Assembly (NCBI GenBank): GCA_046727155.1
Contig: JBKPCB010000014.1
Span: 22,695-86,694, forward strand
Source: Candidatus Methylomirabilota bacterium
GTDB lineage: Bacteria > Methylomirabilota > Methylomirabilia > Rokubacteriales > CSP1-6
Reading direction: 5' to 3'
DNA length: 64,000 nucleotides
Every line of letters begins with the position of its first letter. Position 1 is the first letter of the stretch. Shown in pieces: positions 2,159-20,016 of the stretch. Made by a program: the position numbers and the translations under genes. The notes under the pieces were generated by a model. It was given only the letters and a program-made list of their open reading frames with translations, had not been told where the DNA came from and did not search any database.

Positions 2159-2301
2159 CGGGTCGGTTCTCCCAGAGGGCTCGATCGGTCAACTCGGCCA
2201 CTATGACCAAGCAGGCCTGGAGGCGCAAGCCCGGTCGGTGTCATCTTCCCGCCCTTCATTAACGCGGTGCATCGGATTCAAGCTGCCCGCTGTCTTCGCG
2301 C

Positions 2302-2331
2302 TTGACAAGAGCCTGACCCCGAACAATATAT
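2302..2331 (+). promoter_or_regulatory. sigma70-like promoter TTGACA-N17-AATATA upstream of the TauE gene
   Basis: AT-rich hexamers stand out in GC-rich sequence. They lie inside the longest-ORF extension of TauE. Confidence 0.4.
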
Positions 2332-2354
2332 CTCACGATGTCTCTACGCTCTGG

Positions 2355-3509
2355 ATGACGATGGCAACGTCCTCGGTTTCCTCTGAGTCGGCCGCCGTCG
2401 CCCAACGCGCCGTGCTCGCCCCTCGCTCGCTCGGCGTGGAGTTTCTGCGGGAGCAGGCACCGATCATCGTGGCCGTCTTTGGCCTGGGCGTCGCGGCCAG
2501 CTATCTGCAGCACGGCTTCCTCGTAGGAGGCGAGCGCCCCTTCCCCTTGGCGGGCGTGCCCGTGCCGCTCTGGCACCTGCTGTGGCTCGGCTTTTGGACC
2601 GGCTACACCATGGCGCTCGTGGGCGAGGCAACCGGGATCTTCTCGCTCCCCTACTCCATGTCCATCCTCCGGTTTGACAACGTCCACGTGAGCCCGACCA
2701 ACCTGGTGATCACCGTCATCAATCCGATTGGGGCTCTCCTGGGCTTTCGCCGGACTGGGCAGTGGAATCTCGACTTCGCCCTCTGGCCGTGCCTGGGCAC
2801 TCTCATTGGGTCGCAGGTGGGGCCGTACCTGCGGGTCACCTACTTGAGCGATCCCGTGCCCTTCAAGGCTCTGGTGGGTCTCGCGCTGTTCTGGCTCGGC
2901 TGTCACCTGGTCTGGGAGATTACGCCGTGGTATCTGAGGGGGCGCGAGACGCAGCGTCTCTTCACCGAGCGCTTCCGGGCGCGGGCTCGCGAGATGGCGG
3001 CCGTCGGGCAATTCCCGTCGGGCATCCCGGAAGGATCCCGAATCGAGACCTTGGAGCGCGGGTGGCGACGGATCAGGATCGGCTTTCTGGGCCAGGAGTG
3101 GACCCTGAGCGTCCCGGTGCTCTTTCTCCTCGGCATCGGTGTCGGCGTCGTCGCTTCGACTCTGGGCGTCGGCGGAGGTTTCCTCTTGACACCGCTCCTG
3201 GTCACGCTGTTCAAGCTGCCGATGTATGTCATCGTGGCCGCCACGATCCCCTTCGTCATGCTCCAGTCCATCGTGGGCCTCGTCTCCTACATGCTGGTCC
3301 TCCCAGCTCTGACAGGGCATCTGGACCAGCCCGAGTGGGCATTCGGCTTCTTCACCGCCAGCACCGCCGTCTTCGGTGCCTGGCTGGCGGCCAAGACGCA
3401 GCGCTTCGTCCCCGAGGCCTACCTCAAGCTCGTGGCCGGCGTGGTCACGGGGCTCGGCGGGCTGCTGTACCTCATCAACTACTTCGTGCCGCTGCCGTTC
3501 AGGATATGA
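2355..3509 (+). CDS. TauE/SafE family sulfite exporter-type membrane protein (DUF81)
   Basis: Polytopic membrane protein with two internally repeated 4-TM halves typical of TauE/SafE. The longest ORF starts at 2238, but a sigma70-like promoter (TTGACA-N17-AATATA, 2302-2331) lies inside that extension. I therefore chose the in-frame ATG at 2355. Confidence 0.75.
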   Translation: MTMATSSVSSESAAVAQRAVLAPRSLGVEFLREQAPIIVAVFGLGVAASYLQHGFLVGGERPFPLAGVPVPLWHLLWLGFWTGYTMALVGEATGIFSLPYSMSILRFDNVHVSPTNLVITVINPIGALLGFRRTGQWNLDFALWPCLGTLIGSQVGPYLRVTYLSDPVPFKALVGLALFWLGCHLVWEITPWYLRGRETQRLFTERFRARAREMAAVGQFPSGIPEGSRIETLERGWRRIRIGFLGQEWTLSVPVLFLLGIGVGVVASTLGVGGGFLLTPLLVTLFKLPMYVIVAATIPFVMLQSIVGLVSYMLVLPALTGHLDQPEWAFGFFTASTAVFGAWLAAKTQRFVPEAYLKLVAGVVTGLGGLLYLINYFVPLPFRI

Positions 3510-3604: not shown

Positions 3605-3612
3605 GGCCGGCT

Positions 3613-5552: not shown

Positions 5553-6755
5553 ATGCTCTACGTGAAACGGTTCCGGATTCTGGCGACGACACTCGCGATC
5601 ATTCTCAGCCTGGGCGTAGCCAGCGGGGCCTGGGCCGAACTCGAGTACAAGCCGCTCCCGGCCCAGCAGGAGAAGGGCGATCCCGTCCACATCCGCGTCT
5701 ATCATCAACCGTACTACACCCAGTCGTGGAGCTCATCGGTGATGAAGGTCAAGCAGTTCTGGAAGAAGTACCTGCCGCCGGGCTCGACGGTAACCTACGA
5801 GATCGCGCTCCAGGGCGCCCTCGCCGTGAACGCCATCGTGGCCGACAAGGCCGAGTATGGCTACGGCGGCGACGCGCCCAGCGTCCTGGGGATGACCCAG
5901 CCGCGTGAGAAGGCGGACATCCGCGGCGTCTGGGTGAACGGATACTCGAACTGCTGCCATTGCAACGTGATGATCATCGCCGCTGACGCGCCCTACCAGA
6001 AGTCGCCCGAGGATTACGTGAAGTGGCTGAAGGGCAAGCGGGTCGGCGGCGCCAAGGCCTCGTGCAACGACCGCTGGTTCCGTCAAGTGTACAAGCGCTT
6101 CGGCGTCGAGCCCGAGTCCCACGTGCACCAGAGCTTCGAGGTCACGCGGACGCAGTTCCGGGTGAAGCGCATCGACGCGACTGGGATCTGGGAGCCGCAC
6201 GCCTCGGCAATCTGGCTCCAGGACAAGACCGGCCGCCCGGCCGCGACCGGCGGCGCATTCGGGATGGATGATCTCTCCTCGACCTTCGCCAGCAACAAGT
6301 TCATCAAGGCCAATCCGCGGGCTCACATCGCTATGGCCAAGGCGGAGATCGAGTCCCAGATGTGGCTGATCGATCCCAAGCACGAGAAGGAGCTCATCGA
6401 GGCCCTGGCCAAGGAGACCGAAGGCTACTCCAAGCTGGTGCTGTGGCATTCAATGTACGGCAAATACCCTGACGAAGTGGGCGGCCAGGCCATTCGTGAT
6501 TTCCACCCCGTCATGTACACCGACGACGTCAAGCGGTTGTTCAAGGACGTGAGCGACTTCCTCTGGTCCATCAAGGTCACCTCCCAGCTGTTGCCTGCCG
6601 ACGCCTATCTCGAAGAGCCGCTGGCTGTCGCGGCCAAGGAGCTGGGTGTCCGGCTGCCGCTGGAGGGCGGGTTCATCACGGCGCGACCCATCGAAAAATC
6701 GCCGTACTACGATCCGAAGGCGCTGGAGGGAGTGCCACCGGTTGTGAAGAAGTAG
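5553..6755 (+). CDS. ABC transporter periplasmic substrate-binding protein, NitT/TauT (SsuA/TauA/NMT1-like) family
   Basis: Signal peptide, 400 aa, NMT1/SsuA-like fold signature blocks. Followed by cognate permease and ATPase genes. RBS GGAGG upstream. Confidence 0.8.
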   Translation: MLYVKRFRILATTLAIILSLGVASGAWAELEYKPLPAQQEKGDPVHIRVYHQPYYTQSWSSSVMKVKQFWKKYLPPGSTVTYEIALQGALAVNAIVADKAEYGYGGDAPSVLGMTQPREKADIRGVWVNGYSNCCHCNVMIIAADAPYQKSPEDYVKWLKGKRVGGAKASCNDRWFRQVYKRFGVEPESHVHQSFEVTRTQFRVKRIDATGIWEPHASAIWLQDKTGRPAATGGAFGMDDLSSTFASNKFIKANPRAHIAMAKAEIESQMWLIDPKHEKELIEALAKETEGYSKLVLWHSMYGKYPDEVGGQAIRDFHPVMYTDDVKRLFKDVSDFLWSIKVTSQLLPADAYLEEPLAVAAKELGVRLPLEGGFITARPIEKSPYYDPKALEGVPPVVKK

Positions 6756-6777: not shown

Positions 6778-7743
6778 GTGACCGCGCGCCGCCCAGCCGC
6801 CAGACAAGGCCATATGGCGAAGATCCTGACGAAGACCGCCGCCGCGCCGGCGGCTGAGGCGCGGGTGGAGCCGGCGGTGGTCTACACCCGCCGCCGCATC
6901 CTCTGGCTGCGCACGAAGAAGGCCCTCACCGAGCGATTCTTCTGGCTCGGCTTGCTCGGCATCCTGGCCTTCTTCGTCGGATGGGATCTGGCCTATCGCT
7001 TCGAGCTGCCGCGCATGGAGAAGCTCGAGAGCCCGCTCTACACGTTTCGCGAGTTCACGCTCCCACCGCGGGGGGCGTTGACCTACAACCCGGCGCTGGA
7101 ATCCAAGTGGGGCTACGGTATCTGGGGCACCGCCTGGTACATCGACATCGGAATGAGCGTCTGGCGCATCATTCAGGCCTTCCTGTGGTCCCTGCTGGGC
7201 ATTCCCCTCGGCCTACTGATGGGCTGGAAGCGCTCCATCCGCGATTTCGTATTCGCGCCCTTCGAGCTCATGCGCCCAATCCCGCCCATCTCCTGGGTGC
7301 CGCTGGCCATCGTCATGTTTCCGACTCAAGAGGCGCCCATTGTCTTTCTCTGCGCCATCGCCTCCTTCTTCGCGGTGACCCTCAATACCCTGCTCGGCGT
7401 GGACTCAATCGATCCCGTGTACTTCCGCGCCGCCCGCTGCCTCGGGTCGAGCGAGTGGCAGATCTTCCGCCACGTGATCATCCCGGGCGCCATGCCCTTC
7501 ATCTTCACCGGCATGCTGATCGGACTCGGCGTGGCGTGGTTCTCCCTGGTGGGAGGCGAGATCATCGCCGGCACCTGGGGGCTCGGATACCGGACCATGG
7601 ATGCCTACATGAATGTCGCGACGCCCCAGCTCCTCATCGCGATGTTCACCATCGGGTTCATCGGCATGCTCATGGGGGTCGGGCTTCGCATCCTGCAGCG
7701 GCGCGTGCTCGCCTGGAAAGCCAAGACCGGAGAGACAATCTGA
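6778..7743 (+). CDS. ABC transporter permease, NitT/TauT family (binding-protein-dependent inner-membrane component)
   Basis: 6 TM segments and a conserved EAA-type loop. The start may instead be ATG 6814. Stop overlaps the next start (TGATG). Confidence 0.85.
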   Translation: MTARRPAARQGHMAKILTKTAAAPAAEARVEPAVVYTRRRILWLRTKKALTERFFWLGLLGILAFFVGWDLAYRFELPRMEKLESPLYTFREFTLPPRGALTYNPALESKWGYGIWGTAWYIDIGMSVWRIIQAFLWSLLGIPLGLLMGWKRSIRDFVFAPFELMRPIPPISWVPLAIVMFPTQEAPIVFLCAIASFFAVTLNTLLGVDSIDPVYFRAARCLGSSEWQIFRHVIIPGAMPFIFTGMLIGLGVAWFSLVGGEIIAGTWGLGYRTMDAYMNVATPQLLIAMFTIGFIGMLMGVGLRILQRRVLAWKAKTGETI

Positions 7744-8993
7744 TGCAGGCCCTCCTCGATTTCCTGAAGCGTGTCGAGATCTTCAAGGATCTCGGCCGGG
7801 AGACGCTGGAGAAGATCGCCACCATCTGCGAGGAGAAGCGCCTCCCACGGGGGACCGTCGTCTATCGCACCGGAGAGACCCCCGAGTCCTTCTATATCCT
7901 CAAGCAGGGGGCGGTGAGCCATCCGAGCCTGCTGGGAGGGCGCGGCTCCTCCGACGGGCTCGTCCGCGCGCCGGGCGATCTCTTCGGGCTTGCTGCGGTC
8001 GTGGAAGAAATGAAGCGACGCTTGTTCACCGTCGAGTGTCTCGAGGACACCACGGTATACGCCATCAACGGCGCCCGGCTGCGCGAGATCCTCAAACTGG
8101 ACCCCTCCACCGGCTACGCCGTCATGCAGCGCTTCGCCGGCCTGATGGCCAAGGCCGAGGGGTCCATCCCCGCGCGCACCGGCGCGCTCAGCATCCGAAA
8201 TGCCGGGAAGATCTACGACCCGGAAGGCGTGCACGTGATCGCGGTCGAGGACTGCTCCGTTGAGGTACCGCCCGGGGGGATTTGCGTCGTCGTGGGACCC
8301 TCGGGCTGCGGGAAAACCACCCTCCTCAACACCATCGCCGGCTTCGATAATCTGACCTCAGGAGAAATCTACCTCGACGGGGATCTCATCGCCGCGCCGG
8401 GAAGGGCGCTGAAGCCCGGGCCCGACCGGATCGTGGTCTTCCAGCAGGGCGCGCTGTTTCCGTGGAAGACCGTGCTCGACAACGTCACCTACGGGCCTGT
8501 CATCCAGGGCAAGATGTCACGGAAGGAAAGCGAGGACCACGCGCGGGGCCTGATGGAGAAGGTCGGGCTCGCGGGAATCGAGTCCCAGTATCCGGGAGAG
8601 ATCTCCTCGGGGATGCGGCGCCGGGTCGAGATCGTTCGGGCGCTGATCAACGACCCGAAAATCCTCCTGCTCGACGAGCCCTTCCGCGCCCTGGATGCGC
8701 TGACCAAATCGGTCATGCACGAGTACCTCCTCGAGCTCTACGATCTCTCCCACAAGACCATCTTCTTCATTACCCATGACCTCGAGGAGGCCATCTTCCT
8801 GGGCGACCTGGTCGTGATCATGACAACCCGTCCCGGCCGCGTGAAGAAGCTGATCTCCGTGGATCTCCCCCGCCCTCGCACTTACCGCATGCTGACCTCG
8901 AAGCGCTTCCTGGCCCTCAAACAGGAAACCATCGAGGGCGTGCACGAGGAAGCGCTCAAGGCCTTCGAGGCCGGGGAGCGGGAGCTGGCGTAG
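7743..8993 (+). CDS. ABC transporter ATP-binding protein (NitT/TauT family) with N-terminal cyclic-nucleotide-binding (Crp-like cNMP) domain
   Basis: Residues 1-140 form a classical cNMP-binding beta-roll (IFKDLGRETLEKIA…RTGETPESFYILKQG…). This is followed by Walker A GPSGCGKTT, the ABC signature (EISSGMRRRV), Walker B LLLDEPF and an H-loop. Confidence 0.85.
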   Translation: MQALLDFLKRVEIFKDLGRETLEKIATICEEKRLPRGTVVYRTGETPESFYILKQGAVSHPSLLGGRGSSDGLVRAPGDLFGLAAVVEEMKRRLFTVECLEDTTVYAINGARLREILKLDPSTGYAVMQRFAGLMAKAEGSIPARTGALSIRNAGKIYDPEGVHVIAVEDCSVEVPPGGICVVVGPSGCGKTTLLNTIAGFDNLTSGEIYLDGDLIAAPGRALKPGPDRIVVFQQGALFPWKTVLDNVTYGPVIQGKMSRKESEDHARGLMEKVGLAGIESQYPGEISSGMRRRVEIVRALINDPKILLLDEPFRALDALTKSVMHEYLLELYDLSHKTIFFITHDLEEAIFLGDLVVIMTTRPGRVKKLISVDLPRPRTYRMLTSKRFLALKQETIEGVHEEALKAFEAGERELA

Positions 8994-9003
8994 GGGTGCG
9001 CGA

Positions 9004-10074
9004 ATGAGCCTTGCGAGCGCCGCGAAATGGGCATTGGTCCTGTGGACGCTGGTGTGCGTCGGGCTCGGCTTCTTCCGGTTCGCCGACACCACGTTTCCGC
9101 TGAACCCGCCGCCGGGGGTCCATGGGGAGCTCCACATCGCTCTGCAGGCGATGCGCGCCTATCGATACTGGGGGGCGATCTGGATCGCACCCGCCGCGGC
9201 GCTGTTCCTCGTGTGGCGTCTCAGGCGCGAGGTCGACGAGGACTCGGCGAGCCGGCGACGGGCCGTGGAGCGGAGGCGCCAGCCGGTGGCGACGCGTGTG
9301 AGGAAGGCCGCTTTCAACGTACACACGCTCCGGGGGGCTCTTGGTGTCCTGGCGATCCTCATCGTCTGGCAGATCGCTCAGCCGCTGGGGATTCCCATCA
9401 TCAAGCGGATCCCGCCGCTGTCCGAGGTCGTGTCGCGTTTCTTCGATGATCGCGGCCTCTTCTGGCGCGACAAGTACTGGGCGGGCTGGGTCATCAGCCT
9501 CTTCCGGATCTTCTCCGGCTTCATCCTCGCGCTGCTCATCGGCGTCCCCCAAGGCCTCGCCTGGGGGATCAGCCGAACCATGAAGGCGGTGTCCTTCCCG
9601 GTGTTCGAGATCTTCCGGCCTATTCCCCCGCTCGCCTTCCTGCCGGCCGCCATCTACCTCATGCCGACGGCCGAGCTCTCGATCATCTTCGTGATCTTCC
9701 TGGGCGCCTACTTCACCATCGTCATCAACACCATCAACGGCGTGTACAACGTGGACAAGTCCATGCAGCGGGCCGCACTATCCCTCGGCGCGAGGCGCGG
9801 CGACATCTTCTGGAGAGTCATCTTCCCCGGCACGCTGCCGTCCATCATCACGGGCGCCACCGTGGGAATGGGGATCACGTGGATGGTGCTGGTCGCGGCC
9901 GAGATGATCGCCGGACGCTCGGGGATCGGCTTTCTCACCTGGGAGTCGTATACCGCCGGCGACATTCCGCAGGTGGTCGTCGGTATGGCCAGCATGGGCG
10001 TTGGAGGCGCCATTTGCAGCGCCGTGATATGGCGCCTGGGCGTCAACCTCACCCCATGGCGGAGGCTGTTCTGA
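9004..10074 (+). CDS. second ABC transporter permease, NitT/TauT family
   Basis: Paralog of the 6778 permease with conserved membrane topology and EAA loop region. Confidence 0.85.
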   Translation: MSLASAAKWALVLWTLVCVGLGFFRFADTTFPLNPPPGVHGELHIALQAMRAYRYWGAIWIAPAAALFLVWRLRREVDEDSASRRRAVERRRQPVATRVRKAAFNVHTLRGALGVLAILIVWQIAQPLGIPIIKRIPPLSEVVSRFFDDRGLFWRDKYWAGWVISLFRIFSGFILALLIGVPQGLAWGISRTMKAVSFPVFEIFRPIPPLAFLPAAIYLMPTAELSIIFVIFLGAYFTIVINTINGVYNVDKSMQRAALSLGARRGDIFWRVIFPGTLPSIITGATVGMGITWMVLVAAEMIAGRSGIGFLTWESYTAGDIPQVVVGMASMGVGGAICSAVIWRLGVNLTPWRRLF

Positions 10075-10093
10075 GCCTTAGGCGCGGAGGGGC

Positions 10094-10945
10094 GTGATGC
10101 CGAAGGGCGAAGGCCGCGTCGAGTGCCGTGACGTGACGAGGATGTTCGGGGAAGAATGGGCGCGCCAGCTCGTCGTGGATGGTGCCTCCTTCCTGGTCGA
10201 GGCCGGCAAGCTCAATGTGATGGTCGGGCCCTCCGGCTGCGGCAAGAGCACTCTGATCAACCTCATCGCCGGCTACGAGGAGCCGACTCGGGGCGAGATC
10301 CTCATCGACGGCCAGCGCGTGCAAGGCCCTGGGCGCGACCGTCTGGTCGTCTTCCAGGAGACGGCGCTGTTCCCCTGGATGACGTCGTTGGAGAACGTGC
10401 GGTTTGGCCCCCAGGTGCGCGGGATCAATCCGAAGGAGTCGCGGCAGGAGGCCCGCCGACTGCTGGAGAAAGTGGGACTGCGGGGCTTCGAGGACAAGTA
10501 CCCGTCGCAGCTGTCCGGGGGCATGCAGCGCCGCTGCGAGCTCGCGCGAGCGCTCATCAACCAGCCCAAGATCATGCTGATGGACGAACCCTTCCGCGGG
10601 CTGGACGCCATGACCCGCGAGCTGATGCAGGAGTACCTCCTTCGCCTCTTCGAGGAAACACAACTGACGATCCTGTTCGTGACGACCGAGCTGGAGGAGG
10701 CCATCTTCCTCGCGGACCGCCTCTTCATCATGAGCGCGAAGCCGACGAGCGTGAAGATGGTCCTCGACGTCGATTTGCCGCGCCCCCGCGACTTCCACGT
10801 CCTGACCAGCGAGCGCTACGCGGAGCTGAAACAGGTGGCGCTGGAAGCGCTCTACGAGGAGGCGGTCAAAGCCTTCGCCAAGGGCAGCAAGGCTGCCTAT
10901 GACCTCGTGGAGGCCTTCGGCAAGCGAGTCGGGACGGGCGGATGA
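10094..10945 (+). CDS. second ABC transporter ATP-binding protein, NitT/TauT family (no cNMP domain)
   Basis: Walker A GPSGCGKST, signature LSGGMQRR, Walker B LMDEPF, H-loop. Confidence 0.85.
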   Translation: MMPKGEGRVECRDVTRMFGEEWARQLVVDGASFLVEAGKLNVMVGPSGCGKSTLINLIAGYEEPTRGEILIDGQRVQGPGRDRLVVFQETALFPWMTSLENVRFGPQVRGINPKESRQEARRLLEKVGLRGFEDKYPSQLSGGMQRRCELARALINQPKIMLMDEPFRGLDAMTRELMQEYLLRLFEETQLTILFVTTELEEAIFLADRLFIMSAKPTSVKMVLDVDLPRPRDFHVLTSERYAELKQVALEALYEEAVKAFAKGSKAAYDLVEAFGKRVGTGG

Positions 10946-11287: not shown

Positions 11288-12475
11288 ATGGCGCGTGGAA
11301 TGGCGGAGTGGGAACGCAGGCCGGCCTTGCCCCCGACCCATTACGTCCATCCGGCGATCTACACGGACCCTGTGATCTTGCGCGAGGAGCAGGAGAAGAT
11401 CTTCTCCAAGGTCTGGTACCTCGCCTGTCATGAGAGCGAGCTGCCGAGCGCCAACGATTACCGCGCCTACCAGCATCCCGCCGGGAAAAACCTGCTCATC
11501 GCGCGCGGCGAGGACGGCAGGATCCGGACCTTCTACAACGTCTGCCCTCACCGCGGCAACACGCTGGTCTACGGCCCCGCCGGGAACGCCAAGCACATCA
11601 CCTGCATCTTCCACGCGTGGGCCTTCAGCACGAAGGGTGACTGCGTCGAGATCACGCGGGAAAAGCAGGGCTATGGCGATCGCCTGAGCAAGAAGGATTA
11701 CGGGCTGCGCGAGGTGCGGACCGAGGTTGGATTCGGCGGTTTCGTCTACGTCAATCTGGACGACAGCGCGGGCCCGCTGGCGGAATTCATCGGTCACGCG
11801 CTCGACGGCATGCTGAAGTGTCTGGAGTCGGAGCCGCTCGAGGTGTTCCACTACCACAAGGCGGTGGTGAACACGAATTTCAAGTTCTGGCACGACACGA
11901 ACAGCGAGTTCTACCACGACTACATGCACTACCACAATCGCCAGACCAGCATGCTCCAGCCGAGCTACTGGGAGCGGGAGTACATCCCCTTCCCGAACGG
12001 CCACGCGCAGGTCGGCGATCAGGTCGTGAAGTACGAGGCCTACGAGGGCTTCAAGGGCCGCGAGCTCTCCTTCCCGGGGCTCGAGCGGAACGGCTGGAAG
12101 ATGGTGGACCTCTTCCCGGGCTTTACCTACAACCTTCGCGGCTCGGCGCTTCGAATCGACACGATCCTGCCGCTCAGTCCGGCAAAGACCGTCATCGAGT
12201 ACCGCGGCCTCGGCCTGAAGGGCGACACCTCCGATCAGCGGACCCAGCGCATCAACGACTACAACTCAATCTGGGGCCCTTTCGGGCGCAACCTGCACGA
12301 GGACCTGTTGGGGGTAACGGGCCAAGGTCGCTGCATCGGGGGTGGGCAAACCTGGATCCTCCATGCTCGGGAGGAAGCGAACAAGATCCACGACGAGATC
12401 GGGATGCGCCACTACTACGCCGAGTGGAGCCGCCGGATGGGGCGTCTGGCGAGCAGCCCGAATGGCGAACGATGA
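11288..12475 (+). CDS. Rieske non-haem iron ring-hydroxylating-type oxygenase, large (alpha) subunit
   Basis: Rieske motif CPHRG-X17-CIFHAW and a mononuclear-iron His/Asp region (DYMHYHN). 395 aa. Strong RBS AGGAGG. Operon with beta, reductase and ferredoxin genes. Confidence 0.85.
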   Translation: MARGMAEWERRPALPPTHYVHPAIYTDPVILREEQEKIFSKVWYLACHESELPSANDYRAYQHPAGKNLLIARGEDGRIRTFYNVCPHRGNTLVYGPAGNAKHITCIFHAWAFSTKGDCVEITREKQGYGDRLSKKDYGLREVRTEVGFGGFVYVNLDDSAGPLAEFIGHALDGMLKCLESEPLEVFHYHKAVVNTNFKFWHDTNSEFYHDYMHYHNRQTSMLQPSYWEREYIPFPNGHAQVGDQVVKYEAYEGFKGRELSFPGLERNGWKMVDLFPGFTYNLRGSALRIDTILPLSPAKTVIEYRGLGLKGDTSDQRTQRINDYNSIWGPFGRNLHEDLLGVTGQGRCIGGGQTWILHAREEANKIHDEIGMRHYYAEWSRRMGRLASSPNGER

Positions 12476-12957
12476 ACACCGCCAATACTGCTGTGAGCGG
12501 CGCGATCGAGCACCAGGTGCGAAACCTCATCTACACGGGTTGTCTGCTGCTCGATGCGAGCGACTTCGGGGGATGGCTGGGCCTGTGCGCGCCAGACTTT
12601 CGCTACTCGATCTCCACCTACAGCCCGGAGATCCGAAAGGATCAGACGTGGCTCGACCACGATTTCGAGGGGATGCAGCACCTGGTCAACATGCTCCCGA
12701 AGCACAACAGCGACCAGACTCCGCTGACCCGCCACGCCACGGTCTACACGATCGACCACGATCCAGCGGCCAATGAAGCGAAGGTGGTGACCTCCGTTGC
12801 CATCTATGCCACTACCCTCGACGGCGGTGAGACCAGCCTGTACGCCCTCGCCCGGTATCACGACGTGGTGGGCCTGGCGGGAACACCCCGATTGAAGCGG
12901 CGGGTCGTACGGCTCGAGACGCGCAGCCTCGGCATCGGGAAACACTGGCCGCTCTAG
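12472..12957 (+). CDS. oxygenase small (beta) subunit, NTF2/SnoaL-like fold
   Basis: 161 aa. ATGA overlap with the alpha stop. Typical beta-subunit size and sequence character. Confidence 0.75.
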   Translation: MNTANTAVSGAIEHQVRNLIYTGCLLLDASDFGGWLGLCAPDFRYSISTYSPEIRKDQTWLDHDFEGMQHLVNMLPKHNSDQTPLTRHATVYTIDHDPAANEAKVVTSVAIYATTLDGGETSLYALARYHDVVGLAGTPRLKRRVVRLETRSLGIGKHWPL

Positions 12958-12976: not shown

Positions 12977-14020
12977 TTGAAGATCCTGCTCAGCGCCAAG
13001 AACCAGGCGTACTCCTTCGACTGCGACCCCGGCGAGAAGATCCTGCACGCCGGCTTGCGCTGCGGTATCGGGCTTCCCTACGAATGCGGCACCGGCACCT
13101 GCGGGACCTGCAAAGGAAAATTGACCCAGGGAGAGGTCCACAACGAATGGCCAGAGGCGCCCGGCCAGGCCGGGCTGCGGCGCGACGCGGGCGAGTTCCT
13201 CATGTGCCAGTGTGTGGCCCGGACCGACTGTTCGCTGCAGGTGGCCAATGTCGTAAAGCCCATGGCGCCGGACGTCTTTCTGCCCGCGGCCGTGGGCAGT
13301 GTCATCCGCCGAAGCACGATGCTCACCCACGACGTGGCGGCGCTGGAGGTGGAACTAGCCGACCCGTTCAGCTTCGAAGCCGGGCAGTTCGTGCTGATGT
13401 CCGTTCCGGGTGTCGTCGGCACGCGAGCCTACTCGATGACGAACTTCGAGCGTAAGGCGAAACAACTCGCGTTCGTCATCAAGAAGAAGCCGGGCGGCCG
13501 GGTGAGCGAATGGCTCTTCCGCGGTGGCATCGAGGACACGCGAGTGGATCTGTTCGGGCCGCTCGGAGTGGCGACCTTTCACCCAGGGATCGGCAAGAGC
13601 CTCCTCTGCATCGCGGGGGGCAGCGGCATCGCCGGCATGATGTCCATCCTGACCTGCGCGGCCGAGGCGCGGCATTTTGATCGCTACCGGGGCCACGTCT
13701 TCTTCGGCGTTCGCACCTCGAGGGACGTCTTCTTTCTCGACGAGCTGGCCGCGCTCCGGACCCGCTTCCCGGATGCCCTCGACGTGACGGTCGCCCTCTC
13801 CGACGAGGCTATCGACGCGGGACTCGAGGCCCGGTATCCGAGGCTTCACTTCGACGCGGGGCTGATCCACGCGGTGGCGGGAGCGCGGATGAAGGGCAGG
13901 TTCGACAACGTCCGGGCGTACGCGGCGGGACCGCCCCCGATGGTGGACGCGACGCTCAGGATGCTCCTGCTGGAGGGACGGCTGACCTCCGACAACATCC
14001 GTTACGACAAGTTCAGCTGA
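12977..14020 (+). CDS. oxygenase reductase component: plant-type [2Fe-2S] ferredoxin domain + FAD/NAD(P)-binding ferredoxin-NAD(P)H reductase
   Basis: CxxxxCxxC…C cluster (CGTGTCGTC) at the N-terminus. RxYS FAD motif (RAYS). GGSGIAG NAD-binding glycine-rich motif. Confidence 0.85.
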   Translation: MKILLSAKNQAYSFDCDPGEKILHAGLRCGIGLPYECGTGTCGTCKGKLTQGEVHNEWPEAPGQAGLRRDAGEFLMCQCVARTDCSLQVANVVKPMAPDVFLPAAVGSVIRRSTMLTHDVAALEVELADPFSFEAGQFVLMSVPGVVGTRAYSMTNFERKAKQLAFVIKKKPGGRVSEWLFRGGIEDTRVDLFGPLGVATFHPGIGKSLLCIAGGSGIAGMMSILTCAAEARHFDRYRGHVFFGVRTSRDVFFLDELAALRTRFPDALDVTVALSDEAIDAGLEARYPRLHFDAGLIHAVAGARMKGRFDNVRAYAAGPPPMVDATLRMLLLEGRLTSDNIRYDKFS

Positions 14021-14031: not shown

Positions 14032-14760
14032 ATGGGGAAGAAGTTTCTCTGCCGCACCGACGAGTGCCCGCGCAACGGCATGAAGACCTTCGAGACCGAG
14101 GGCGGGCTGAAGATCCTCGTGGCCAACTCGGGCGACCGGTACTACGGCTACCAGGCCATGTGCCCGCACATGGACGTGGCCCTGGAGGAGGGCTTCTACG
14201 ACGGGGCCGTCATCACCTGCCACCAGCACCTGTGGCAATGGGAAGTCCGGTCCGGCACGCCAATGGGCCAGGCCGAAGCCCCGCTGCAGCAGTATGAGTT
14301 GCACGAGGAGGACGGCGCGCTCTACGTCGTGCCATCGGATCCGGTGAGACAGACGGAGCTCTTTGCCGGCCTGACGGACGAGACGCTGGCAGCCATCGGC
14401 CGCCTGGCCCGACGCGAGACGTTCGAGGAGGGCAGCGTGATCTACCGGCCCGGCGATCCGGCGGACGACCTGTGCGTGCTCGAGTCGGGACGCGTACAGT
14501 TCACCATTGGGCACGGCGAGCACGCGAGCCCCGCCGGCTTCAGCCTGCGGAGTGGTGAGGTGTTCGGCTGGAACGCGCTCCTTGAGGACCAGCCGCAGCG
14601 TATCGCGACGGCCGCCGCGCTGGAACGGTCCTCGGTGCTCCTGCTCGACGGCCGGGAGCTCTTCGGCGTCTTCGAGAAGGACCCGAGGGCCGGATACCTC
14701 GTGATGCGTAGGCTGGCCTCCCTGATCACCCGACACCTGACGCCGATGGGGGCCCGATGA
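14032..14760 (+). CDS. Rieske [2Fe-2S] ferredoxin fused to C-terminal cyclic-nucleotide-binding (Crp-like) domain
   Basis: N-terminal ~105 aa has CPH-X16-CHQH (Rieske ferredoxin). C-terminal ~125 aa is a classical cNMP beta-roll (LFAGLTDETLAAIGRLARRETFEEGSVIYRPGDPADDLCVLESGRVQF…). Confidence 0.8.
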   Translation: MGKKFLCRTDECPRNGMKTFETEGGLKILVANSGDRYYGYQAMCPHMDVALEEGFYDGAVITCHQHLWQWEVRSGTPMGQAEAPLQQYELHEEDGALYVVPSDPVRQTELFAGLTDETLAAIGRLARRETFEEGSVIYRPGDPADDLCVLESGRVQFTIGHGEHASPAGFSLRSGEVFGWNALLEDQPQRIATAAALERSSVLLLDGRELFGVFEKDPRAGYLVMRRLASLITRHLTPMGAR

Positions 14761-15566
14761 GCTCCGAGATTTTGTCCAGCCCCGAGAGGTCCGGGCGGGC
14801 GGGCGGACACGGCGCCGAGATGGCCCAGATCGAGCGGGTCAGCGCCGTGCCGCTCTACCGGCAGCTGCTCGAGATTCTCCGCGAGGAGATCGTCTCCGGG
14901 CGCCTGAAGGCCCACGAGCGGCTGGCGACCGAGCTCGAGCTGATGAAGCGGTTCGGCCTCAGCCGCACCACCGTGCGCCAAACGATCTCACGGCTGCGGA
15001 ACGAGGGCCTGATCTCGGTCCATCGTGGCAAGGGCACCTTCGTCGGCCGGGGCAAGATCGAGCCGGAGCTCTCGGCCCTCACGGGGTTCGTGGAGGACAT
15101 GCGGGCGCTCGGGCTGACGGCATCGGCCCGCGTGCTCGGCGTGGAGAACGTCAAGGCCTCGGAACAGGTCGCCGAGAACCTGGGGGTCCGCCGCGGAGAC
15201 CTGGTCACGAAGATCACGCGAATCCGCCTGGCTGAAGAGGTACCGGTCTCGTTCGAGTACTCCTTCCTGCCGCTCGACCTCGGCCAGCGGGTGGCCCAAG
15301 AAAATCTCGAGGTGTCACCGATCTTTTCGCTCTTCGAGGACAAGTACGGAATCGCGTTGAGCGAAGCCTTCTACCGGATCGAGGCCAGCCGCGCCAACCG
15401 GGTGATCGCCGATGCCCTGGGCATCGAGCGCGGAGCGCCTGTGCTCGCCATCGAGCGCCAAACGCACAGTGTCGCCGGGCAGCCGGTCGACTTCGAGCAG
15501 ATGTACTACCGGGGTGACCGAATCCGGTACACCATGCGCCTCAAGCGTCGTCCGCCGCCGCGATGA
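14757..15566 (+). CDS. GntR-family transcriptional regulator with UTRA effector domain (HutC/FarR subfamily)
   Basis: wHTH GntR signature (RLATELELMKRFGLSRTTVRQTISRLRNEGLI) plus a C-terminal UTRA-like domain. A start at 14820 (MAQIERV) is also possible. Confidence 0.8.
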   Translation: MSSEILSSPERSGRAGGHGAEMAQIERVSAVPLYRQLLEILREEIVSGRLKAHERLATELELMKRFGLSRTTVRQTISRLRNEGLISVHRGKGTFVGRGKIEPELSALTGFVEDMRALGLTASARVLGVENVKASEQVAENLGVRRGDLVTKITRIRLAEEVPVSFEYSFLPLDLGQRVAQENLEVSPIFSLFEDKYGIALSEAFYRIEASRANRVIADALGIERGAPVLAIERQTHSVAGQPVDFEQMYYRGDRIRYTMRLKRRPPPR

Positions 15567-15579: not shown

Positions 15580-16230
15580 ATGAGCGCCACGAAACGGGAC
15601 GCAGCCGGGACCCGCGCGCGGCCGGCCGCAGACCCCGAAAGCCTCGAGGGCTTCCTCGAGGCGCTGGCCGGCACCTCGCCGACACCCGCCGGCGGCGCGG
15701 CTGGGGCGCTCACCGGAGCGCTTGCGGCTGCCCTTCTGAGCATGGTCTGCCGCGTGACGGCGCGGCGCGACCGGTCGGCCTCCGACTTGCCGAGGCTCGC
15801 CGCGACGGCAGACGAGCTTCGGACGACGCTGAGCCGACTCGTCGCCGAGGACACGGACGCCTACCAAGGGGTGCTCGACGCGCGGCGAGGATCCACCGCG
15901 ACGCCAGCAGCCGTCCAGTCGGCGCTCGTGCGGGCCACTGAGGTCCCCCTCGAGCTGGCGAGGCTGAGCGGGTCGCTGCTGGGGCTGTGCGAAAGGGTGC
16001 TCCCACAGGCCCGTGCGAGTGTACTGAGCGACCTTGGCGTGGCCGCGGCGCTCGCCCGGGCGGCGCTCGAGGCCGCCGCAATCACGGTCCGGGCCAACCT
16101 CGTGGGCGTGATCGATGTGAGGTTCGTCGATGCGGCAGCGACCAAACTGGACCGCCTCCTCGCCGAGGGGCAGACGGCGCACCACCGGATCGGCGAGATG
16201 ATCATCAAGCGAGTTGGACGTCCCGACTAA
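15580..16230 (+). CDS. cyclodeaminase/cyclohydrolase family protein (formiminotransferase-cyclodeaminase C-domain / methenyl-THF cyclohydrolase FchA-like)
   Basis: ~216-aa all-alpha protein. Ala/Leu-rich pattern matches FTCD_C family members. The longer ORF 15412 overlaps GntR out of frame. Confidence 0.6.
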   Translation: MSATKRDAAGTRARPAADPESLEGFLEALAGTSPTPAGGAAGALTGALAAALLSMVCRVTARRDRSASDLPRLAATADELRTTLSRLVAEDTDAYQGVLDARRGSTATPAAVQSALVRATEVPLELARLSGSLLGLCERVLPQARASVLSDLGVAAALARAALEAAAITVRANLVGVIDVRFVDAAATKLDRLLAEGQTAHHRIGEMIIKRVGRPD

Positions 16231-16250
16231 CCCTCAAGGAGGAAGGACCA

Positions 16251-17137
16251 TGGCGGAGACAAAGCCCGCAGAGCAGCCGAAACCCCGCAAGAAGATCACG
16301 ATTCCCTCCCTGATGGACAAGAAGGCGCGGAAGGAGCCGATCACGATGCTGGCCGTCTACGACTACCCGACGTCGATCATCGCCGACCGCATCGGGATCG
16401 ACGTGCTCTGCACCAGCGACACGGGCGGCATGGTGCTCTTCGGCCACGAGAGCACCGAGACGGTGACCTACGAGGAAGTGCTGTTCATGACCCAGGGCAT
16501 GGCCCGCGGCTCGAAATTCGGCCTGCGGATGACGGACATGCCCTACATGAGCTACCACTACTCCGAGGAGCAGGCGATTCGGAACGCGGCCCGCTTCGTC
16601 AGCGAGGGCCGGGCCGAGGTCATGAAGTGCGAAGGCAATAAGCACCACGCCAAGTACATCGGCGCCATCGTCCGCGCCGGCATCCCGGTGATGGGCCACA
16701 TCGGCATCACGCCCATGCGGGTGGCCCAGCTCGGGGGCTTCAGCGCCCAAGGAAAAACAGCGGAGCGGGCAGCCGAGCTGGTAGAGGACGCCAAGGCGAT
16801 GGTCGACGCGGGGTGCTTCTCCATCCTGTGCGAGGTGACCACCTCGGAGGTGTGTGAATACCTGGCCGACACGCTGCCGGTGCCCGTGATCAGCCTGGGC
16901 GCGGGCAACAAGGCCGACGGCGTGCACATCATCACTTCCGACCTGTTCAAGTTCTACGACCGTCACACGCCACGCCACTCCAAGGTGTATATGGAGATCT
17001 TCCCGGTCATTCAGAAGGTCCTGCAGGACTACCACGACGACGTCGTGGGCCGTCGGTACCCGGGCCCCGAGCATACGGTGTTCATGAAGGAAGAGGAGCT
17101 CAAGCGGTTCCGCGACATCGTCGGTTGGCACAAGTAG
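16251..17137 (+). CDS. panB: 3-methyl-2-oxobutanoate hydroxymethyltransferase (ketopantoate hydroxymethyltransferase) family
   Basis: Conserved PanB blocks (TMLAVYDYPTS, DVLCTSDTGGMV, GHIGITPM, VISLGAG). RBS AAGGAGGAAGG 6 nt upstream of the ATG. Confidence 0.85.
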
Positions 17138-17277
17138 GCGTAGACGGGCCGCGCGGCTGTCCGCCCGCGCGCTGCGAACCGCCTGAACGGTGGTCGGAGA
17201 CGAATGGCCCGGCGAGAGGCGCCGATCGCGAGGTCCGAGCCGTGATCGTCGCCTCCGCCGACAGTACCTGATCCGTG
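17135..17277 (+). repeat. possible degenerate copy D (panB stop through MFS start)
   Basis: Shares GTGG…GATCGCGAG…GTCCGAG blocks and the stop-to-start placement. Overall identity is only ~60 % with gaps. Confidence 0.3.
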
Positions 17278-19380: not shown

Positions 19381-20004
19381 TCAGCGAAGACTCGAATAGT
19401 ACGCGGCCAGGTCGGTGAAGGTCTCGTCGGGGATGGTCTTCATCAGCGCCTTGAGCGCCGCGAGCGCCGGGTCGCCCGGGCTCCGATTGTCCGCCTTGAA
19501 CCGCAGCATTTGCTCGCGGAGATAGCCCGGTGGCTGCCCTGTCAGGTTCGGGACGAGCTTGGCCGGATCTCCGCGGCCGTCCGTGCCGTGGCAGACCACG
19601 CACTGCACGGAAGCGGTTCGCCCGCGCTCTACCGCGGCCGTCGAGACCTTGATGGGCGTGGGTTGGCGGCTCTGGCCCGCGAAGTACGCCGCGATATCGT
19701 CCACGCCCAGGAGCACCACCATTTTGGCGTAGGGCTCCATCTCGGGTGAGGGCCGCTTGCCCCCCGCGTAGTCCCCGATCTGCTTCTTGAAGTAGGCGGG
19801 ATACGCGCCCGCCAGGCTCGGCATCGAATCCGAGATGCTATTGCCGCCGGTGCCGTGGCAGGCCGTGCACGTGAAGACTTTGGAAAACCCCGGCATGTCG
19901 ACAGGGCCGCCCGCGGCCGCGCCCGTGACGCCGACGGTCGACAGCACGGCGAGCAGGAAGAGAACGAAGGCGGCGCAGGCAATCAGTCGGTGTCGCGTCG
20001 TCAT
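19381..20004 (-). CDS. dihaem c-type cytochrome (cytochrome c4-like; probable FccA-type partner of sulfide dehydrogenase)
   Basis: Signal peptide. Two CxxCH motifs (CTACHG, CVVCHG). Immediately downstream of the fccB-like gene. Confidence 0.8.
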   Translation of the reverse strand: MTTRHRLIACAAFVLFLLAVLSTVGVTGAAAGGPVDMPGFSKVFTCTACHGTGGNSISDSMPSLAGAYPAYFKKQIGDYAGGKRPSPEMEPYAKMVVLLGVDDIAAYFAGQSRQPTPIKVSTAAVERGRTASVQCVVCHGTDGRGDPAKLVPNLTGQPPGYLREQMLRFKADNRSPGDPALAALKALMKTIPDETFTDLAAYYSSLR

Positions 20005-20016
20005 GCGGCGTCCTCC

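What the first reader, a model, noticed from the sequence alone, without database searches (positions are those of the whole stretch)
14032..14760. Rieske ferredoxin fused to a cyclic-nucleotide-binding domain
The electron-shuttle ferredoxin of the four-component oxygenase (CPH-X16-CHQH) carries a C-terminal Crp-like cNMP domain. Together with the cNMP-ATPase 6 kb upstream, two unrelated components of the same putative catabolic pathway bear cNMP sensors. This points to post-translational control of both uptake and oxygenase electron supply by a cyclic nucleotide. I am not aware of a described Rieske ferredoxin with this fusion.
Basis: seen in the sequence. Interest (0 to 1): 0.65.

Follow-up and report, generated by a model that had tools for sequence, protein, structure and literature searches.

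The report
Rieske ferredoxin with fused sensor domain
The electron-carrier protein of a methanesulfonate-monooxygenase-like enzyme carries a built-in sensor-type domain, sister copies of that domain sit on the substrate importer and beside the sulfite exporter gene, and this points to an undescribed protein-level control of a whole sulfur/C1 pathway by an unknown ligand.

Summary
ORF 14032-14760 (+) encodes a 242-aa protein with a Rieske [2Fe-2S] domain (CPH-X16-CHQH) joined by about 3 residues to a CRP-type cyclic-nucleotide-binding (CNB) fold. Both domains pass Pfam's curated cut-offs.

It is not a frameshift. The same architecture occurs in more than 120 protein clusters and 229 species genomes, including Thiobacillus denitrificans and T. 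thioparus. There are no indels at the junction, and both halves are equally conserved.

The fusion always follows the α, β and reductase genes of an MsmA-like oxygenase. This oxygenase has the short X17 Rieske spacer and is 57% identical to an X26 MsmA-type protein. Nearby genes include a NitT/TauT-type importer, folate-C1 enzymes and the sulfite exporter TauE.

Paralogous CNB modules sit on the importer: on the ATPase here, and on the permease in Betaproteobacteria. A stand-alone copy lies between the PanB-like and TauE genes.

All three classes share an invariant non-canonical pocket, G-W…R-[I/L/M]-A, which lacks the ribose-binding Glu and the Ser/Thr. A cyclic nucleotide is therefore unproven.

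A close relative has an unfused 114-aa ferredoxin, so the module is accessory. I found no description in the literature. The ligand identity is not.

The parts
14032..14760 (+). Rieske ferredoxin-CNB fusion gene (242 aa plus stop). The start lies 11 nt after the reductase stop, and the stop overlaps the GntR start (ATGA).
14044..14331 (+). Rieske [2Fe-2S] ferredoxin domain (residues 5-100), T4moC-like.
   Evidence: Pfam. PDB 1vm9: sequence E 1e-17; Foldseek TM 0.85, rmsd 1.5 A, 34% identity. 66% identical to the stand-alone 114-aa ferredoxin of L086.
14161..14229 (+). Cluster-binding motif C44-P-H46-X16-C63-H-Q-H66.
   Evidence: Read from the sequence. The four ligands are invariant in A1.
14332..14340 (+). 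Very short inter-domain linker (residues 101-103), with no indels in the family.
   Evidence: AF2 secondary structure: strand 96-100, helix from 104. Junction columns.
14341..14679 (+). CNB-like (CRP/FNR-type effector) beta-roll domain, residues 104-216.
   Evidence: Pfam. Foldseek hits to 3mdp, Thermus CAP, Clr, GlxR and PKA CNB domains.
14554..14613 (+). Equivalent of the phosphate-binding cassette, GEVFGWNALLEDQPQRIATA. G179, W180, R190 and A192 are invariant; I191 is nearly invariant.
14683..14739 (+). Long C-terminal helix (residues 218-236), equivalent to the CRP C-helix. The protein ends 6 residues later, with no HTH domain.
7743..8993 (+). ABC importer ATPase 1 with an N-terminal CNB-like domain (416 aa). 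The CNB part spans about 7743-8162.
   Evidence: (107 bits to the cluster-specific CNB HMM)
5553..6755 (+). NMT1/SsuA-like periplasmic substrate-binding protein of the importer.
6778..7743 (+). Importer permease 1. It has no CNB here; orthologs in Betaproteobacteria carry the CNB module at the N-terminus.
9004..10945 (+). Importer permease 2 (9004-10074) and ATPase 2 (10094-10945).
11288..12475 (+). Rieske oxygenase alpha subunit, MsmA-like, with CPH-X17-CIFH.
12472..12957 (+). Oxygenase beta subunit (SnoaL_4 / Ring_hydroxyl_B).
12977..14020 (+). Fer2-FAD-NAD reductase (BenC/MmoC-like).
14757..15566 (+). GntR/UTRA (HutC/PhnF-type) transcriptional regulator, translationally coupled to the fusion.
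15640..17137 (+). FchA-like methenyl-THF cyclohydrolase (FTCD_C; the start near 15640 is approximate, ORF ends 16230) and PanB-like hydroxymethyltransferase (16214-17137).
2238..3509 (+). TauE/SafE sulfite exporter family gene upstream of the importer.
   Evidence: same position in L086

Best explanation
The gene encodes the T4moC/MsmC-type Rieske ferredoxin that carries electrons from the Fer2-FAD reductase to an MsmA-like alpha/beta oxygenase. That oxygenase most likely cleaves methanesulfonate, or a close C1-sulfonate analogue, into formaldehyde and sulfite. The ferredoxin has acquired an accessory ligand-sensing domain of the CRP/CNB fold that is dedicated to this pathway, joined by a rigid linker of about 3 residues. 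Sister copies of the same domain subfamily are attached to the substrate importer (ATPase in this organism, permease in Betaproteobacteria). In Betaproteobacteria a stand-alone copy is also encoded between the PanB-like C1 enzyme and the TauE sulfite exporter. My inference is that one small-molecule effector binds all these modules through the invariant pocket arginine (Arg190). It would throttle import, electron delivery and sulfite/C1 disposal together at the protein level, avoiding uncoupled NADH oxidation and build-up of sulfite and formaldehyde. I think the effector is more likely a pathway-linked oxyanion (sulfite or the sulfonate substrate) than cAMP or cGMP, because the ribose- and phosphate-contacting Glu and Ser/Thr are replaced by invariant Trp and Ile/Leu. 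What is shown: the architecture, its conservation, the synteny, the paralogy of the modules, the non-canonical pocket, and the dispensability of the module in a close relative. What is inferred: the substrate, ligand binding, the ligand's identity, and the gating of electron transfer.
For: Both domains pass curated cut-offs. The fusion is the only Rieske ferredoxin in the window. The fusion is conserved in more than 120 clusters and 229 genomes, with no junction indels and equal constraint on both halves. Synteny: the reductase lies directly upstream in 62/62 loci, alpha and beta in 61/62, and the SBP directly downstream in 59/61. CNB paralogs: the window's ATPase N-terminus is 30% identical with no gaps, E 6e-22. 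The permease-CNB fusion occurs in 53/59 loci and is Pfam-confirmed in T. denitrificans. The CNB-ATPase architecture is conserved at 52-87% identity. A stand-alone CNB sits in a PanB-like/CNB/TauE/GcvT-like module: of 41 metagenomic loci of at least 6 kb, TauE is present in 39, PanB-like in 34 and GcvT-like in 32. A split version exists: stand-alone CNB P0142 lies next to alpha(X26)-beta-ferredoxin. The pocket G-W...R-[ILM]-A is invariant in 97/97 sequences of three classes. The module is accessory: L086 has the same operon order with a 114-aa ferredoxin 66% identical to residues 1-100. Chemistry: alpha is 57% identical to an X26 MsmA-type protein. Of 44 genome loci of at least 15 kb, 27 carry TauE and 27 carry at least one THF/C1 gene. 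FTHFS, FolD, GcvT-like, FDH and SHMT appear in relatives. The authentic msm region of Filomicrobium also carries TauE, GcvT and PanB-like genes (PMC4433239). The AF2 model is confident (pLDDT 87) with a 3-residue linker and a long C-helix.
Against: There is no direct evidence of any ligand binding, or of any effect on electron transfer. The retained Gly, Arg and Ala of the cassette are the hallmark of true cNMP binders, and from my own knowledge Epac-type CNB domains bind cAMP without the Glu, so a cyclic nucleotide is not excluded. The window's own ATPase-borne module differs in the pocket (Leu for Trp, Phe for Ala), so the two modules in this organism may not bind the same ligand. Some clusters lack the transporter module (6/59 loci; L083) or the ferredoxin module (L086), so any control is dispensable. 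Short-spacer MsmA-like proteins have never been shown to oxidise methanesulfonate (PMC4433239). The inter-domain geometry is only moderately confident (pTM 0.65), and I could not inspect coordinates.
Confidence: 0.45

Rival explanations
1. The CNB domains are genuine cAMP or cGMP receptors, and a global second messenger switches import and oxygenase electron supply on or off post-translationally.
For: The Pfam cNMP_binding match is well above the cut-off. The closest structures are true cAMP or cGMP binders: Thermus CAP, Clr, GlxR, PKA and PKG. The Gly, Arg and Ala of the phosphate-binding cassette are invariant. There are precedents for CNB domains controlling fused enzymes, namely mycobacterial Pat and Bd1971 EAL, which appear among the hits. 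A Crp-family regulator lies next to a related transporter cluster in L084.
Against: The Glu that binds the ribose 2'-OH is an invariant Trp, and the Ser/Thr is Ile/Leu/Met, in 97/97 sequences. The modules are concentrated in one pathway, with up to three paralogs per cluster, rather than spread as expected for a global signal. The L084 Crp protein has a different pocket. No cyclase gene was found in the roughly 40 window genes scanned; only 64 kb was available.
Confidence: 0.25
2. The CNB-like modules bind no ligand. They act as oligomerisation or docking modules through the C-helix, as in CRP dimers. They would dimerise the ferredoxin or tether it to the CNB-bearing importer and the stand-alone copy, forming an import-oxidation-export assembly at the membrane.
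For: The C-terminal helix is the most conserved segment (0.70) and corresponds to the CRP dimerisation helix. The same module moves between permease, ATPase and ferredoxin, and also exists free. This fits an interaction module. The nearest solved homolog, 3mdp, lacks the pocket Arg.
Against: Invariance of the pocket residues G179, W180, R190 and A192 across three paralog classes is hard to explain without a bound ligand. Clusters with only one module exist (L083; L086), where heterotypic docking would have no partner.
Confidence: 0.2
3. The Rieske-CNB protein is not the obligatory electron shuttle but a redox- or ligand-sensing regulator. The BenC-like reductase would reduce the oxygenase directly, as in two-component class IB systems.
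For: The reductase has its own plant-type [2Fe-2S] domain and is most similar to BenC and MmoC, and BenC-type reductases can serve oxygenases directly (my own knowledge).
Against: The Rieske half is T4moC-like and occupies the ferredoxin slot of every cluster. An unfused ortholog is kept in L086, and an X26 MsmA-type cluster keeps a stand-alone one. Authentic MSAMO needs all four components, including a 16-kDa ferredoxin (PMC4433239).
Confidence: 0.05
4. A sequencing or assembly frameshift has joined two separate genes.
For: None was found. One relative does have a stand-alone ferredoxin.
Against: Hundreds of independent assemblies, including isolate genomes, encode the same 242-aa protein without junction indels.
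Confidence: 0.01

Closest known systems
T4moC (toluene-4-monooxygenase ferredoxin, PDB 1vm9) and MsmC (ferredoxin of methanesulfonate monooxygenase)
   Same: A Rieske [2Fe-2S] fold of about 100 aa with CXH-X16-CXXH, 34% identity to T4moC and TM 0.85. It is encoded with an alpha/beta hydroxylase and a Fer2-FAD reductase, so it is presumably the electron shuttle.
   Different: T4moC and MsmC are single-domain proteins of about 110-125 aa (MsmC 16 kDa; Filomicrobium msmC is 378 bp; PMC4433239). This protein has an extra 140-aa CNB-like domain. The gene order is alpha-beta-reductase-ferredoxin rather than msmABCD (alpha-beta-ferredoxin-reductase).
Methanesulfonate monooxygenase system msmABCD with the msmEFGH importer
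   Same: A four-component Rieske monooxygenase next to a NitT/TauT-type ABC importer. Alpha is 57% identical to an X26 MsmA-type protein. TauE, GcvT-like and PanB-like genes lie nearby, as in Filomicrobium. Sources annotate alpha as the MSA monooxygenase large subunit.
   Different: The alpha Rieske spacer is X17, not the X26 found in all proven MSA degraders. CNB modules sit on the ferredoxin and importer. Activity on MSA is untested for this clade.
CNB domains that allosterically control a fused enzyme: mycobacterial acetyltransferase Pat (PDB 4oll, 4onu, 4orf) and Bdellovibrio EAL Bd1971 (PDB 6hq2-6hq7)
   Same: A single CRP-type CNB domain is fused to a catalytic or functional domain with no DNA-binding domain. 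Both are sequence hits.
   Different: Those bind cAMP with a canonical cassette (my own knowledge). Here the partner is an electron-transfer protein and the pocket is G-W...R-I-A.
Regulatory domains of ABC importers (MetN C2 domain, ModC, the NrtC/CmpC C-terminal domain); this comparison rests on my own knowledge
   Same: A cytoplasmic accessory domain on an importer subunit, expected to tune transport according to an intracellular ligand. NrtC and CmpC belong to the same NitT/TauT family.
   Different: Here the domain has the CNB fold, sits at the N-terminus of either the ATPase or the permease, and has a paralog on the downstream enzyme's ferredoxin.
Stand-alone CNB protein Gmet_1532 (PDB 3mdp) and the CNB insertion of family 2B encapsulins (PDB 9bhu; NCBIfam NF041163)
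   Same: These are the best structural (3mdp, TM 0.84) and profile neighbours of the CNB half. I know of no assigned ligand for 3mdp, a structural-genomics entry.
   Different: 3mdp lacks the pocket Arg. Neither is linked to a Rieske protein or to this pathway.

Membership tests
Rieske [2Fe-2S] ferredoxin of multicomponent oxygenases (T4moC/BphF/MsmC type) | The CXH-X15-17-CXXH cluster ligands are present and conserved. | tested here: met
   C44-P-H46-X16-C63-H-Q-H66; invariant in 32 homologs.
Rieske [2Fe-2S] ferredoxin of multicomponent oxygenases (T4moC/BphF/MsmC type) | The Rieske fold or profile match is above the curated threshold. | tested here: met
   PF00355 at 41.3 bits against a cut-off of 20.3. 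1vm9: TM 0.85, rmsd 1.5 A.
Rieske [2Fe-2S] ferredoxin of multicomponent oxygenases (T4moC/BphF/MsmC type) | It is encoded with a terminal oxygenase and an NAD(P)H reductase. | tested here: met
   Alpha, beta and reductase lie directly upstream. The reductase is adjacent in 62/62 related loci and alpha/beta in 61/62.
Rieske [2Fe-2S] ferredoxin of multicomponent oxygenases (T4moC/BphF/MsmC type) | It is a small single-domain protein of about 100-125 aa. | tested here: not met
   The protein is 242 aa with a second domain. An unfused 114-aa ortholog exists in L086.
Rieske [2Fe-2S] ferredoxin of multicomponent oxygenases (T4moC/BphF/MsmC type) | It binds a [2Fe-2S] cluster and transfers electrons from the reductase to the oxygenase. 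| not testable with these tools
   This needs spectroscopy and reconstitution.
Cyclic-nucleotide-binding (CNB) domain, PF00027 | The profile match is above the gathering score, and the fold is a beta-roll with flanking helices. | tested here: met
   55.3 bits against a cut-off of 27.5. The AF2 model matches CAP, PKA and MloK1 CNB domains.
Cyclic-nucleotide-binding (CNB) domain, PF00027 | A canonical phosphate-binding cassette, G-E ... R-[ST/A]-A, contacts the ribose 2'-OH and the cyclic phosphate. | tested here: not met
   G179, R190 and A192 are kept, but the Glu is an invariant Trp and the Ser/Thr is Ile/Leu/Met in 97/97 sequences.
Cyclic-nucleotide-binding (CNB) domain, PF00027 | It binds cAMP or cGMP. 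| not testable with these tools
   This needs binding assays.
Crp/FNR transcription factor | A C-terminal HTH_Crp_2 DNA-binding domain follows the C-helix. | tested here: not met
   There is no HTH match, and the protein ends 6 residues after the C-helix.
Methanesulfonate monooxygenase (MsmABCD) | MsmA has the Rieske motif CXH-X26-CXXH. | tested here: not met
   The window alpha has X17, as do the L002, L083 and L086 alphas. The criterion comes from PMC4433239.
Methanesulfonate monooxygenase (MsmABCD) | It has four components: alpha, beta, Rieske ferredoxin and Fer2-FAD reductase. | tested here: met
Methanesulfonate monooxygenase (MsmABCD) | A NitT/TauT-type ABC importer (msmEFGH-like) lies adjacent. 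| tested here: met
   The SBP, two permeases and two ATPases lie at 5553-10945.
Methanesulfonate monooxygenase (MsmABCD) | It has close sequence similarity to authentic MsmA. | tested here: inconclusive
   It is 57% identical over 402 aa to an X26-bearing alpha from metagenomic contig L088. No sequence from a proven MSA degrader was available.
Methanesulfonate monooxygenase (MsmABCD) | It oxidises methanesulfonate to formaldehyde and sulfite. | not testable with these tools
   The context (TauE and THF-C1 genes) is consistent. PMC4433239 states there are no data for the short-spacer clade.

The most novel reading that the evidence does not exclude
The G-W...R-[ILM]-A CNB subfamily is not a cyclic-nucleotide receptor. 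It is a sensor of a sulfur oxyanion: sulfite, or the sulfonate substrate itself. It is deployed on every flux-control point of one pathway, namely the importer, the ferredoxin and the sulfite-export/C1-capture module. That would make this protein the first ligand-gated ferredoxin of a Rieske oxygenase, and the first CNB fold repurposed for an inorganic or organosulfur anion.
Probability: 0.3. Interest if true: 0.8.

Novelty: new variant of a known kind. Interest (0 to 1): 0.6.

Why it matters
As far as I know, Rieske oxygenase systems are regulated at the level of transcription. I know of no electron-transfer component carrying its own sensor domain, and none turned up in the literature searches. 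If the CNB module gates electron delivery, it would be a new way of preventing uncoupled NADH and O2 consumption. It would also coordinate uptake, oxidation and disposal of toxic products (sulfite, formaldehyde) without new protein synthesis.

The family is abundant in soil and groundwater Betaproteobacteria and Rokubacteria. It marks a large, functionally unproven 'short-spacer MsmA-like' clade that is routinely counted as methanesulfonate monooxygenase in metagenomic sulfur-cycle surveys.

Culturable carriers (Thiobacillus denitrificans DSM 12475, T. thioparus DSM 505) make both the enzyme's substrate and the sensor's ligand directly testable.

Tried and rejected
- Frameshift or assembly artefact: rejected on conservation.
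- Canonical MsmA membership: rejected on the X17 spacer.
- Crp-type transcription factor: rejected because there is no HTH domain.
- Inferring the ligand from the closest solved CNB structure (3mdp): uninformative, because it lacks the pocket Arg.
- NCBIfam: no equivalog passed its cut-off for alpha, beta, reductase, SBP or the fusion.
- My initial reading that the transporter module in Betaproteobacteria is a stand-alone gene was wrong. It is fused to permease 1 (confirmed by Pfam).
- Exact-sequence look-up of the window's fusion protein found no contig on record. The organism was inferred instead from cluster members named Candidatus Rokuibacteriota.
- AFDB Foldseek library: not available.
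- De Marco 1999 MSAMO paper: not held, so the authentic MsmA and MsmC sequences could not be compared directly.
- The Variovorax msm cluster in PMC7143210 is the X26 type and not this clade.
- Context look-ups of three other stand-alone CNB representatives hit contigs too short to be informative.
- A diverse 10-sequence CNB alignment was too variable for a metagenome scan. A 6-sequence one worked.
- Cyclase search: none among about 40 window genes. The rest of the genome was not available.
- Literature searches for Rieske plus CNB, or for a CNB-bearing sulfonate transporter, returned nothing relevant.
Full report
**1. Observation**

The ORF 14032-14760 (+) exists as described. It has an ATG start and encodes 242 aa. 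Pfam finds a Rieske domain at residues 5-86 (41.3 bits, cut-off 20.3). It also finds a cNMP_binding domain at residues 129-216 (55.3 bits, cut-off 27.5).

The start lies 11 nt after the reductase stop. The stop overlaps the start of a GntR/UTRA regulator (ATGA).

The surrounding operon on the + strand is as follows:
- NMT1/SsuA-like binding protein, 5553-6755
- permease, 6778-7743
- CNB-ATPase, 7743-8993
- permease, 9004-10074
- ATPase, 10094-10945
- oxygenase alpha, 11288-12475
- oxygenase beta, 12472-12957
- Fer2-FAD-NAD reductase, 12977-14020
- the fusion, 14032-14760
- GntR regulator, 14757-15566
- FchA-like cyclohydrolase, to 16230
- PanB-like enzyme, 16214-17137
- MFS transporter, 17275-18480

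A TauE sulfite-exporter gene lies upstream at 2238-3509.

**2. Not an artefact**

A search of 5.8 billion proteins returned 1294 hits. The 120 best (55-100% identity) are all about 242 aa and all carry both Pfam domains.

A scan of one genome per species found 229 genomes encoding a relative. These include the isolates Thiobacillus denitrificans DSM 12475, T. thioparus DSM 505 and a Pelomicrobium sp. isolate, and MAGs assigned to Methylibium, Rhizobacter and Usitatibacter.

In an alignment of 32 diverse members the four Rieske ligands are invariant and no sequence has an indel at the domain junction. Mean pairwise identity is 0.66 for the Rieske half, 0.63 for the CNB half and 0.70 for the C-terminal helix. 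Both domains are therefore under similar purifying selection.

At 50% clustering the family collapses to essentially one full-length representative. This indicates a compact family of single origin.

Cluster members of the window's alpha subunit are named Candidatus Rokuibacteriota. The window is therefore from a Rokubacteria-type MAG with 67% GC.

**3. Structure**

An AlphaFold2 model built on the 32-sequence alignment is confident (mean pLDDT 87.1, pTM 0.65).

The Rieske beta-sandwich ends at residue 100 and the first CNB helix starts at 104. The linker is therefore about three residues. A long helix (218-236) ends the protein, and there is no DNA-binding domain.

Foldseek against the PDB finds no chain that spans both halves. 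The CNB half matches 3mdp (TM 0.84), Thermus CAP, Clr, GlxR and PKA. The Rieske half matches T4moC 1vm9 (TM 0.85, rmsd 1.5 A, 34% identity).

**4. Gene context of the fusion**

tblastn of the window's operon proteins was run against the 80 genome loci. Of the 62 loci with enough upstream sequence, all 62 have the reductase directly upstream and 61 have alpha and beta. The binding protein lies directly downstream in 59 of 61 loci. The fusion is also the only Rieske ferredoxin in the window. It is therefore the ferredoxin component of this oxygenase.

**5. The oxygenase**

Sources call the alpha subunit 'methanesulfonate monooxygenase large subunit'. However, its Rieske spacer is X17. PMC4433239 reports that all proven methanesulfonate degraders have X26. 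It also says that the short-spacer proteins of Thiobacillus, Methylibium, Methyloversatilis and others carry the name only through automatic annotation.

Two further facts argue that the chemistry is nevertheless close.
- The window alpha is 57% identical over 402 aa to an X26-bearing alpha on contig L088.
- The neighbourhoods are rich in what a formaldehyde-plus-sulfite-releasing reaction needs. These include TauE, formate-THF ligase, FolD or an FchA-like enzyme, GcvT-like and PanB-like enzymes, SHMT and formate dehydrogenase.

Among the 44 genome loci of at least 15 kb, 27 have TauE and 27 have at least one THF/C1 gene. The authentic msm region of Filomicrobium also carries TauE, GcvT and PanB-like genes.

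I therefore treat the enzyme as MsmA-like. Methanesulfonate or a close analogue is the likely substrate, but this is unproven.

**6. The CNB module is a pathway-wide theme**

*(a) The ATPase-borne module.* The N-terminus of the window's ATPase aligns with the fusion's CNB half at 30% identity, without gaps over 132 aa (E 6e-22). It scores 107 bits against an HMM built from the cluster's CNB modules. The CNB-ATPase architecture is itself conserved (416-421 aa). It is found in Rokubacteria-type sequences (75-87% identity) and in Methylophilaceae and Burkholderiales (about 52-55%).

*(b) The permease-borne module.* In Betaproteobacteria the ATPase lacks the module. It is fused instead to the N-terminus of permease 1. 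These ORFs are about 440-450 aa, 53 of 59 loci have the fusion, and L003 has two tandem copies. Pfam confirms the fusion in T. denitrificans.

*(c) The stand-alone module.* A third, stand-alone copy (150-160 aa) lies in a conserved PanB-like/CNB/TauE/GcvT-like module. In 41 metagenomic loci of at least 6 kb recovered with stand-alone CNB queries, TauE is present in 39, PanB-like in 34 and GcvT-like in 32. The CNB-bearing importer often lies beside the module. CNB and TauE are separate ORFs.

*(d) A split version.* The stand-alone CNB P0142 is 42% identical to the fusion's CNB half. It lies next to an alpha(X26)-beta-ferredoxin(110 aa) cluster.

*(e) An unfused ortholog.* L086 has the window's operon order and an ATPase 81% identical to the window's. 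It encodes a complete stand-alone 114-aa ferredoxin, 66% identical to residues 1-100 of the fusion, which abuts the GntR gene. The CNB module on the ferredoxin is therefore accessory, and it has been gained or lost between close relatives.

*(f) A transporter cluster without the oxygenase.* L084 (Methylophilaceae) has the CNB-ATPase transporter with PanB-like, MTHFR-DUF5981, FolD and SulP genes. It has no Rieske oxygenase.

**7. The pocket**

The CNB modules were aligned to E. coli CRP and MloK1. All 32 ferredoxin-fused, 49 permease-fused and 16 stand-alone modules have the following residues:
- Gly at CRP G71
- Trp at E72
- Arg at R82
- Ile, Leu or Met at S83
- Ala at A84

The window's ATPase module has Leu, Arg, Leu and Phe at the last four of these positions.

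The arginine that binds the cyclic phosphate is thus invariant. The Glu that binds the ribose 2'-OH and the Ser/Thr are gone. From my own knowledge, Epac CNB domains bind cAMP without the Glu, so cNMP binding cannot be excluded. Even so, the invariant Trp defines a distinct subfamily.

Among more distant representatives, several (P0199, P0201, P0213) keep Phe-Gly-Trp but lack the Arg. The solved structure 3mdp lacks both the Trp and the Arg.

**8. Interpretation**

*Shown.* The fusion is real, ancient and selectively maintained. It occupies the ferredoxin slot of an MsmA-like oxygenase. The modules are paralogs, sit at the import, electron-supply and export/C1 points of one pathway, and move between partners. 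They share a non-canonical pocket, and they are dispensable in some lineages.

*Inferred.* The modules bind a common small-molecule effector and tune flux post-translationally. I favour a pathway-linked oxyanion (sulfite or the sulfonate) held by Arg190, for two reasons. The modules are concentrated in this pathway, and the ribose-binding residue is lost.

*Rivals.*
- A genuine cAMP/cGMP receptor (0.25)
- A ligand-free docking or dimerisation module acting through the C-helix (0.2)
- A redox sensor rather than an electron carrier (0.05)
- An assembly artefact (0.01)

The 'cyclic nucleotide' part is not established.

**9. Novelty**

Full-text searches for Rieske together with cyclic nucleotide-binding found four unrelated papers. 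Searches around methanesulfonate monooxygenase and around CNB-bearing sulfonate transporters found no description of the fusion or the module set. Databases label the protein only as 'cyclic nucleotide-binding domain-containing protein' or 'toluene monooxygenase system ferredoxin subunit'.

I rate it a new variant of a known kind: a Rieske ferredoxin with an integrated sensor-type domain. Interest is moderate to high (0.6). It is widespread, coherent at the pathway level, and testable in cultured Thiobacillus.

Noticed in passing
L003:12100-14000: Permease 1 of a groundwater betaproteobacterial MAG carries two tandem CNB-like modules before the membrane domain (a 640-aa ORF as extracted by my script; the true start may be internal), whereas other loci have one.
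   Followed up: partly
L084:5267-19202 (Methylophilaceae, 4.28-Mb contig): A CNB-ATPase NitT/TauT-type importer is clustered with a Crp-family regulator and with PanB-like, MTHFR+DUF5981, FolD, formyltransferase-N, FolC-like and SulP genes. There is no Rieske oxygenase. The transporter/C1 module can therefore exist without the oxygenase, and its substrate is unknown.
   Followed up: partly
L171:6945-10405 and about 40 other metagenomic loci: A conserved four-gene module: PanB-like, stand-alone CNB, TauE sulfite exporter and GcvT-like. As far as I know it has not been described.
   Followed up: partly
L008, L012, L021, L030, L069; L158: A second alpha/beta oxygenase pair (58-60% identical to the window's alpha) lies near the main cluster without its own reductase or ferredoxin.
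   Followed up: no
P0155 (114 aa): A database protein joins the first 66 residues of a fusion-type Rieske ferredoxin directly to the GntR regulator sequence. It is probably a deletion or an assembly chimera.
   Followed up: no
L051:10001-11073: The match to the fusion spans 1073 nt instead of about 726 nt, which suggests an insertion or a frame disruption in that MAG's copy.
   Followed up: no
window 27106-28107, 33806-38472 and 47537-50287: A hopanoid-type gene set: squalene-hopene cyclase (35432-37672), radical-SAM+DUF3463 HpnH-like (33806-34822), an MMPL/HpnN-like transporter (47537-50287), LytB/IspH (27106-28107) and MlaE (37441-38472).
   Followed up: no
window 40419-47431: PEP mutase fused to a nucleotidyltransferase (40419-42086), a TPP-dependent decarboxylase-like gene (42196-43359), a CDP-alcohol phosphatidyltransferase (44098-45288) and inositol-1-phosphate synthase (46358-47431). 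This is a likely phosphonate or phospholipid head-group biosynthesis cluster.
   Followed up: no
window 19381-21291 (-): Cytochrome c plus the flavocytochrome c sulfide dehydrogenase flavoprotein, giving further sulfur metabolism about 5 kb from the cluster.
   Followed up: no
window 55613-56884 (+) and 57758-58951 (-): Two BT1-family (folate-biopterin transporter) MFS genes sit next to a molybdopterin oxidoreductase (53535-55589). This may be relevant given the folate-C1 link of the cluster.
   Followed up: no
window 2238-5010: The TauE ORF is long (423 aa; the Pfam domain starts at residue 115) and is followed by a DUF4340 gene (3376-5010). The same TauE-DUF4340-SBP order occurs in L086.
   Followed up: no
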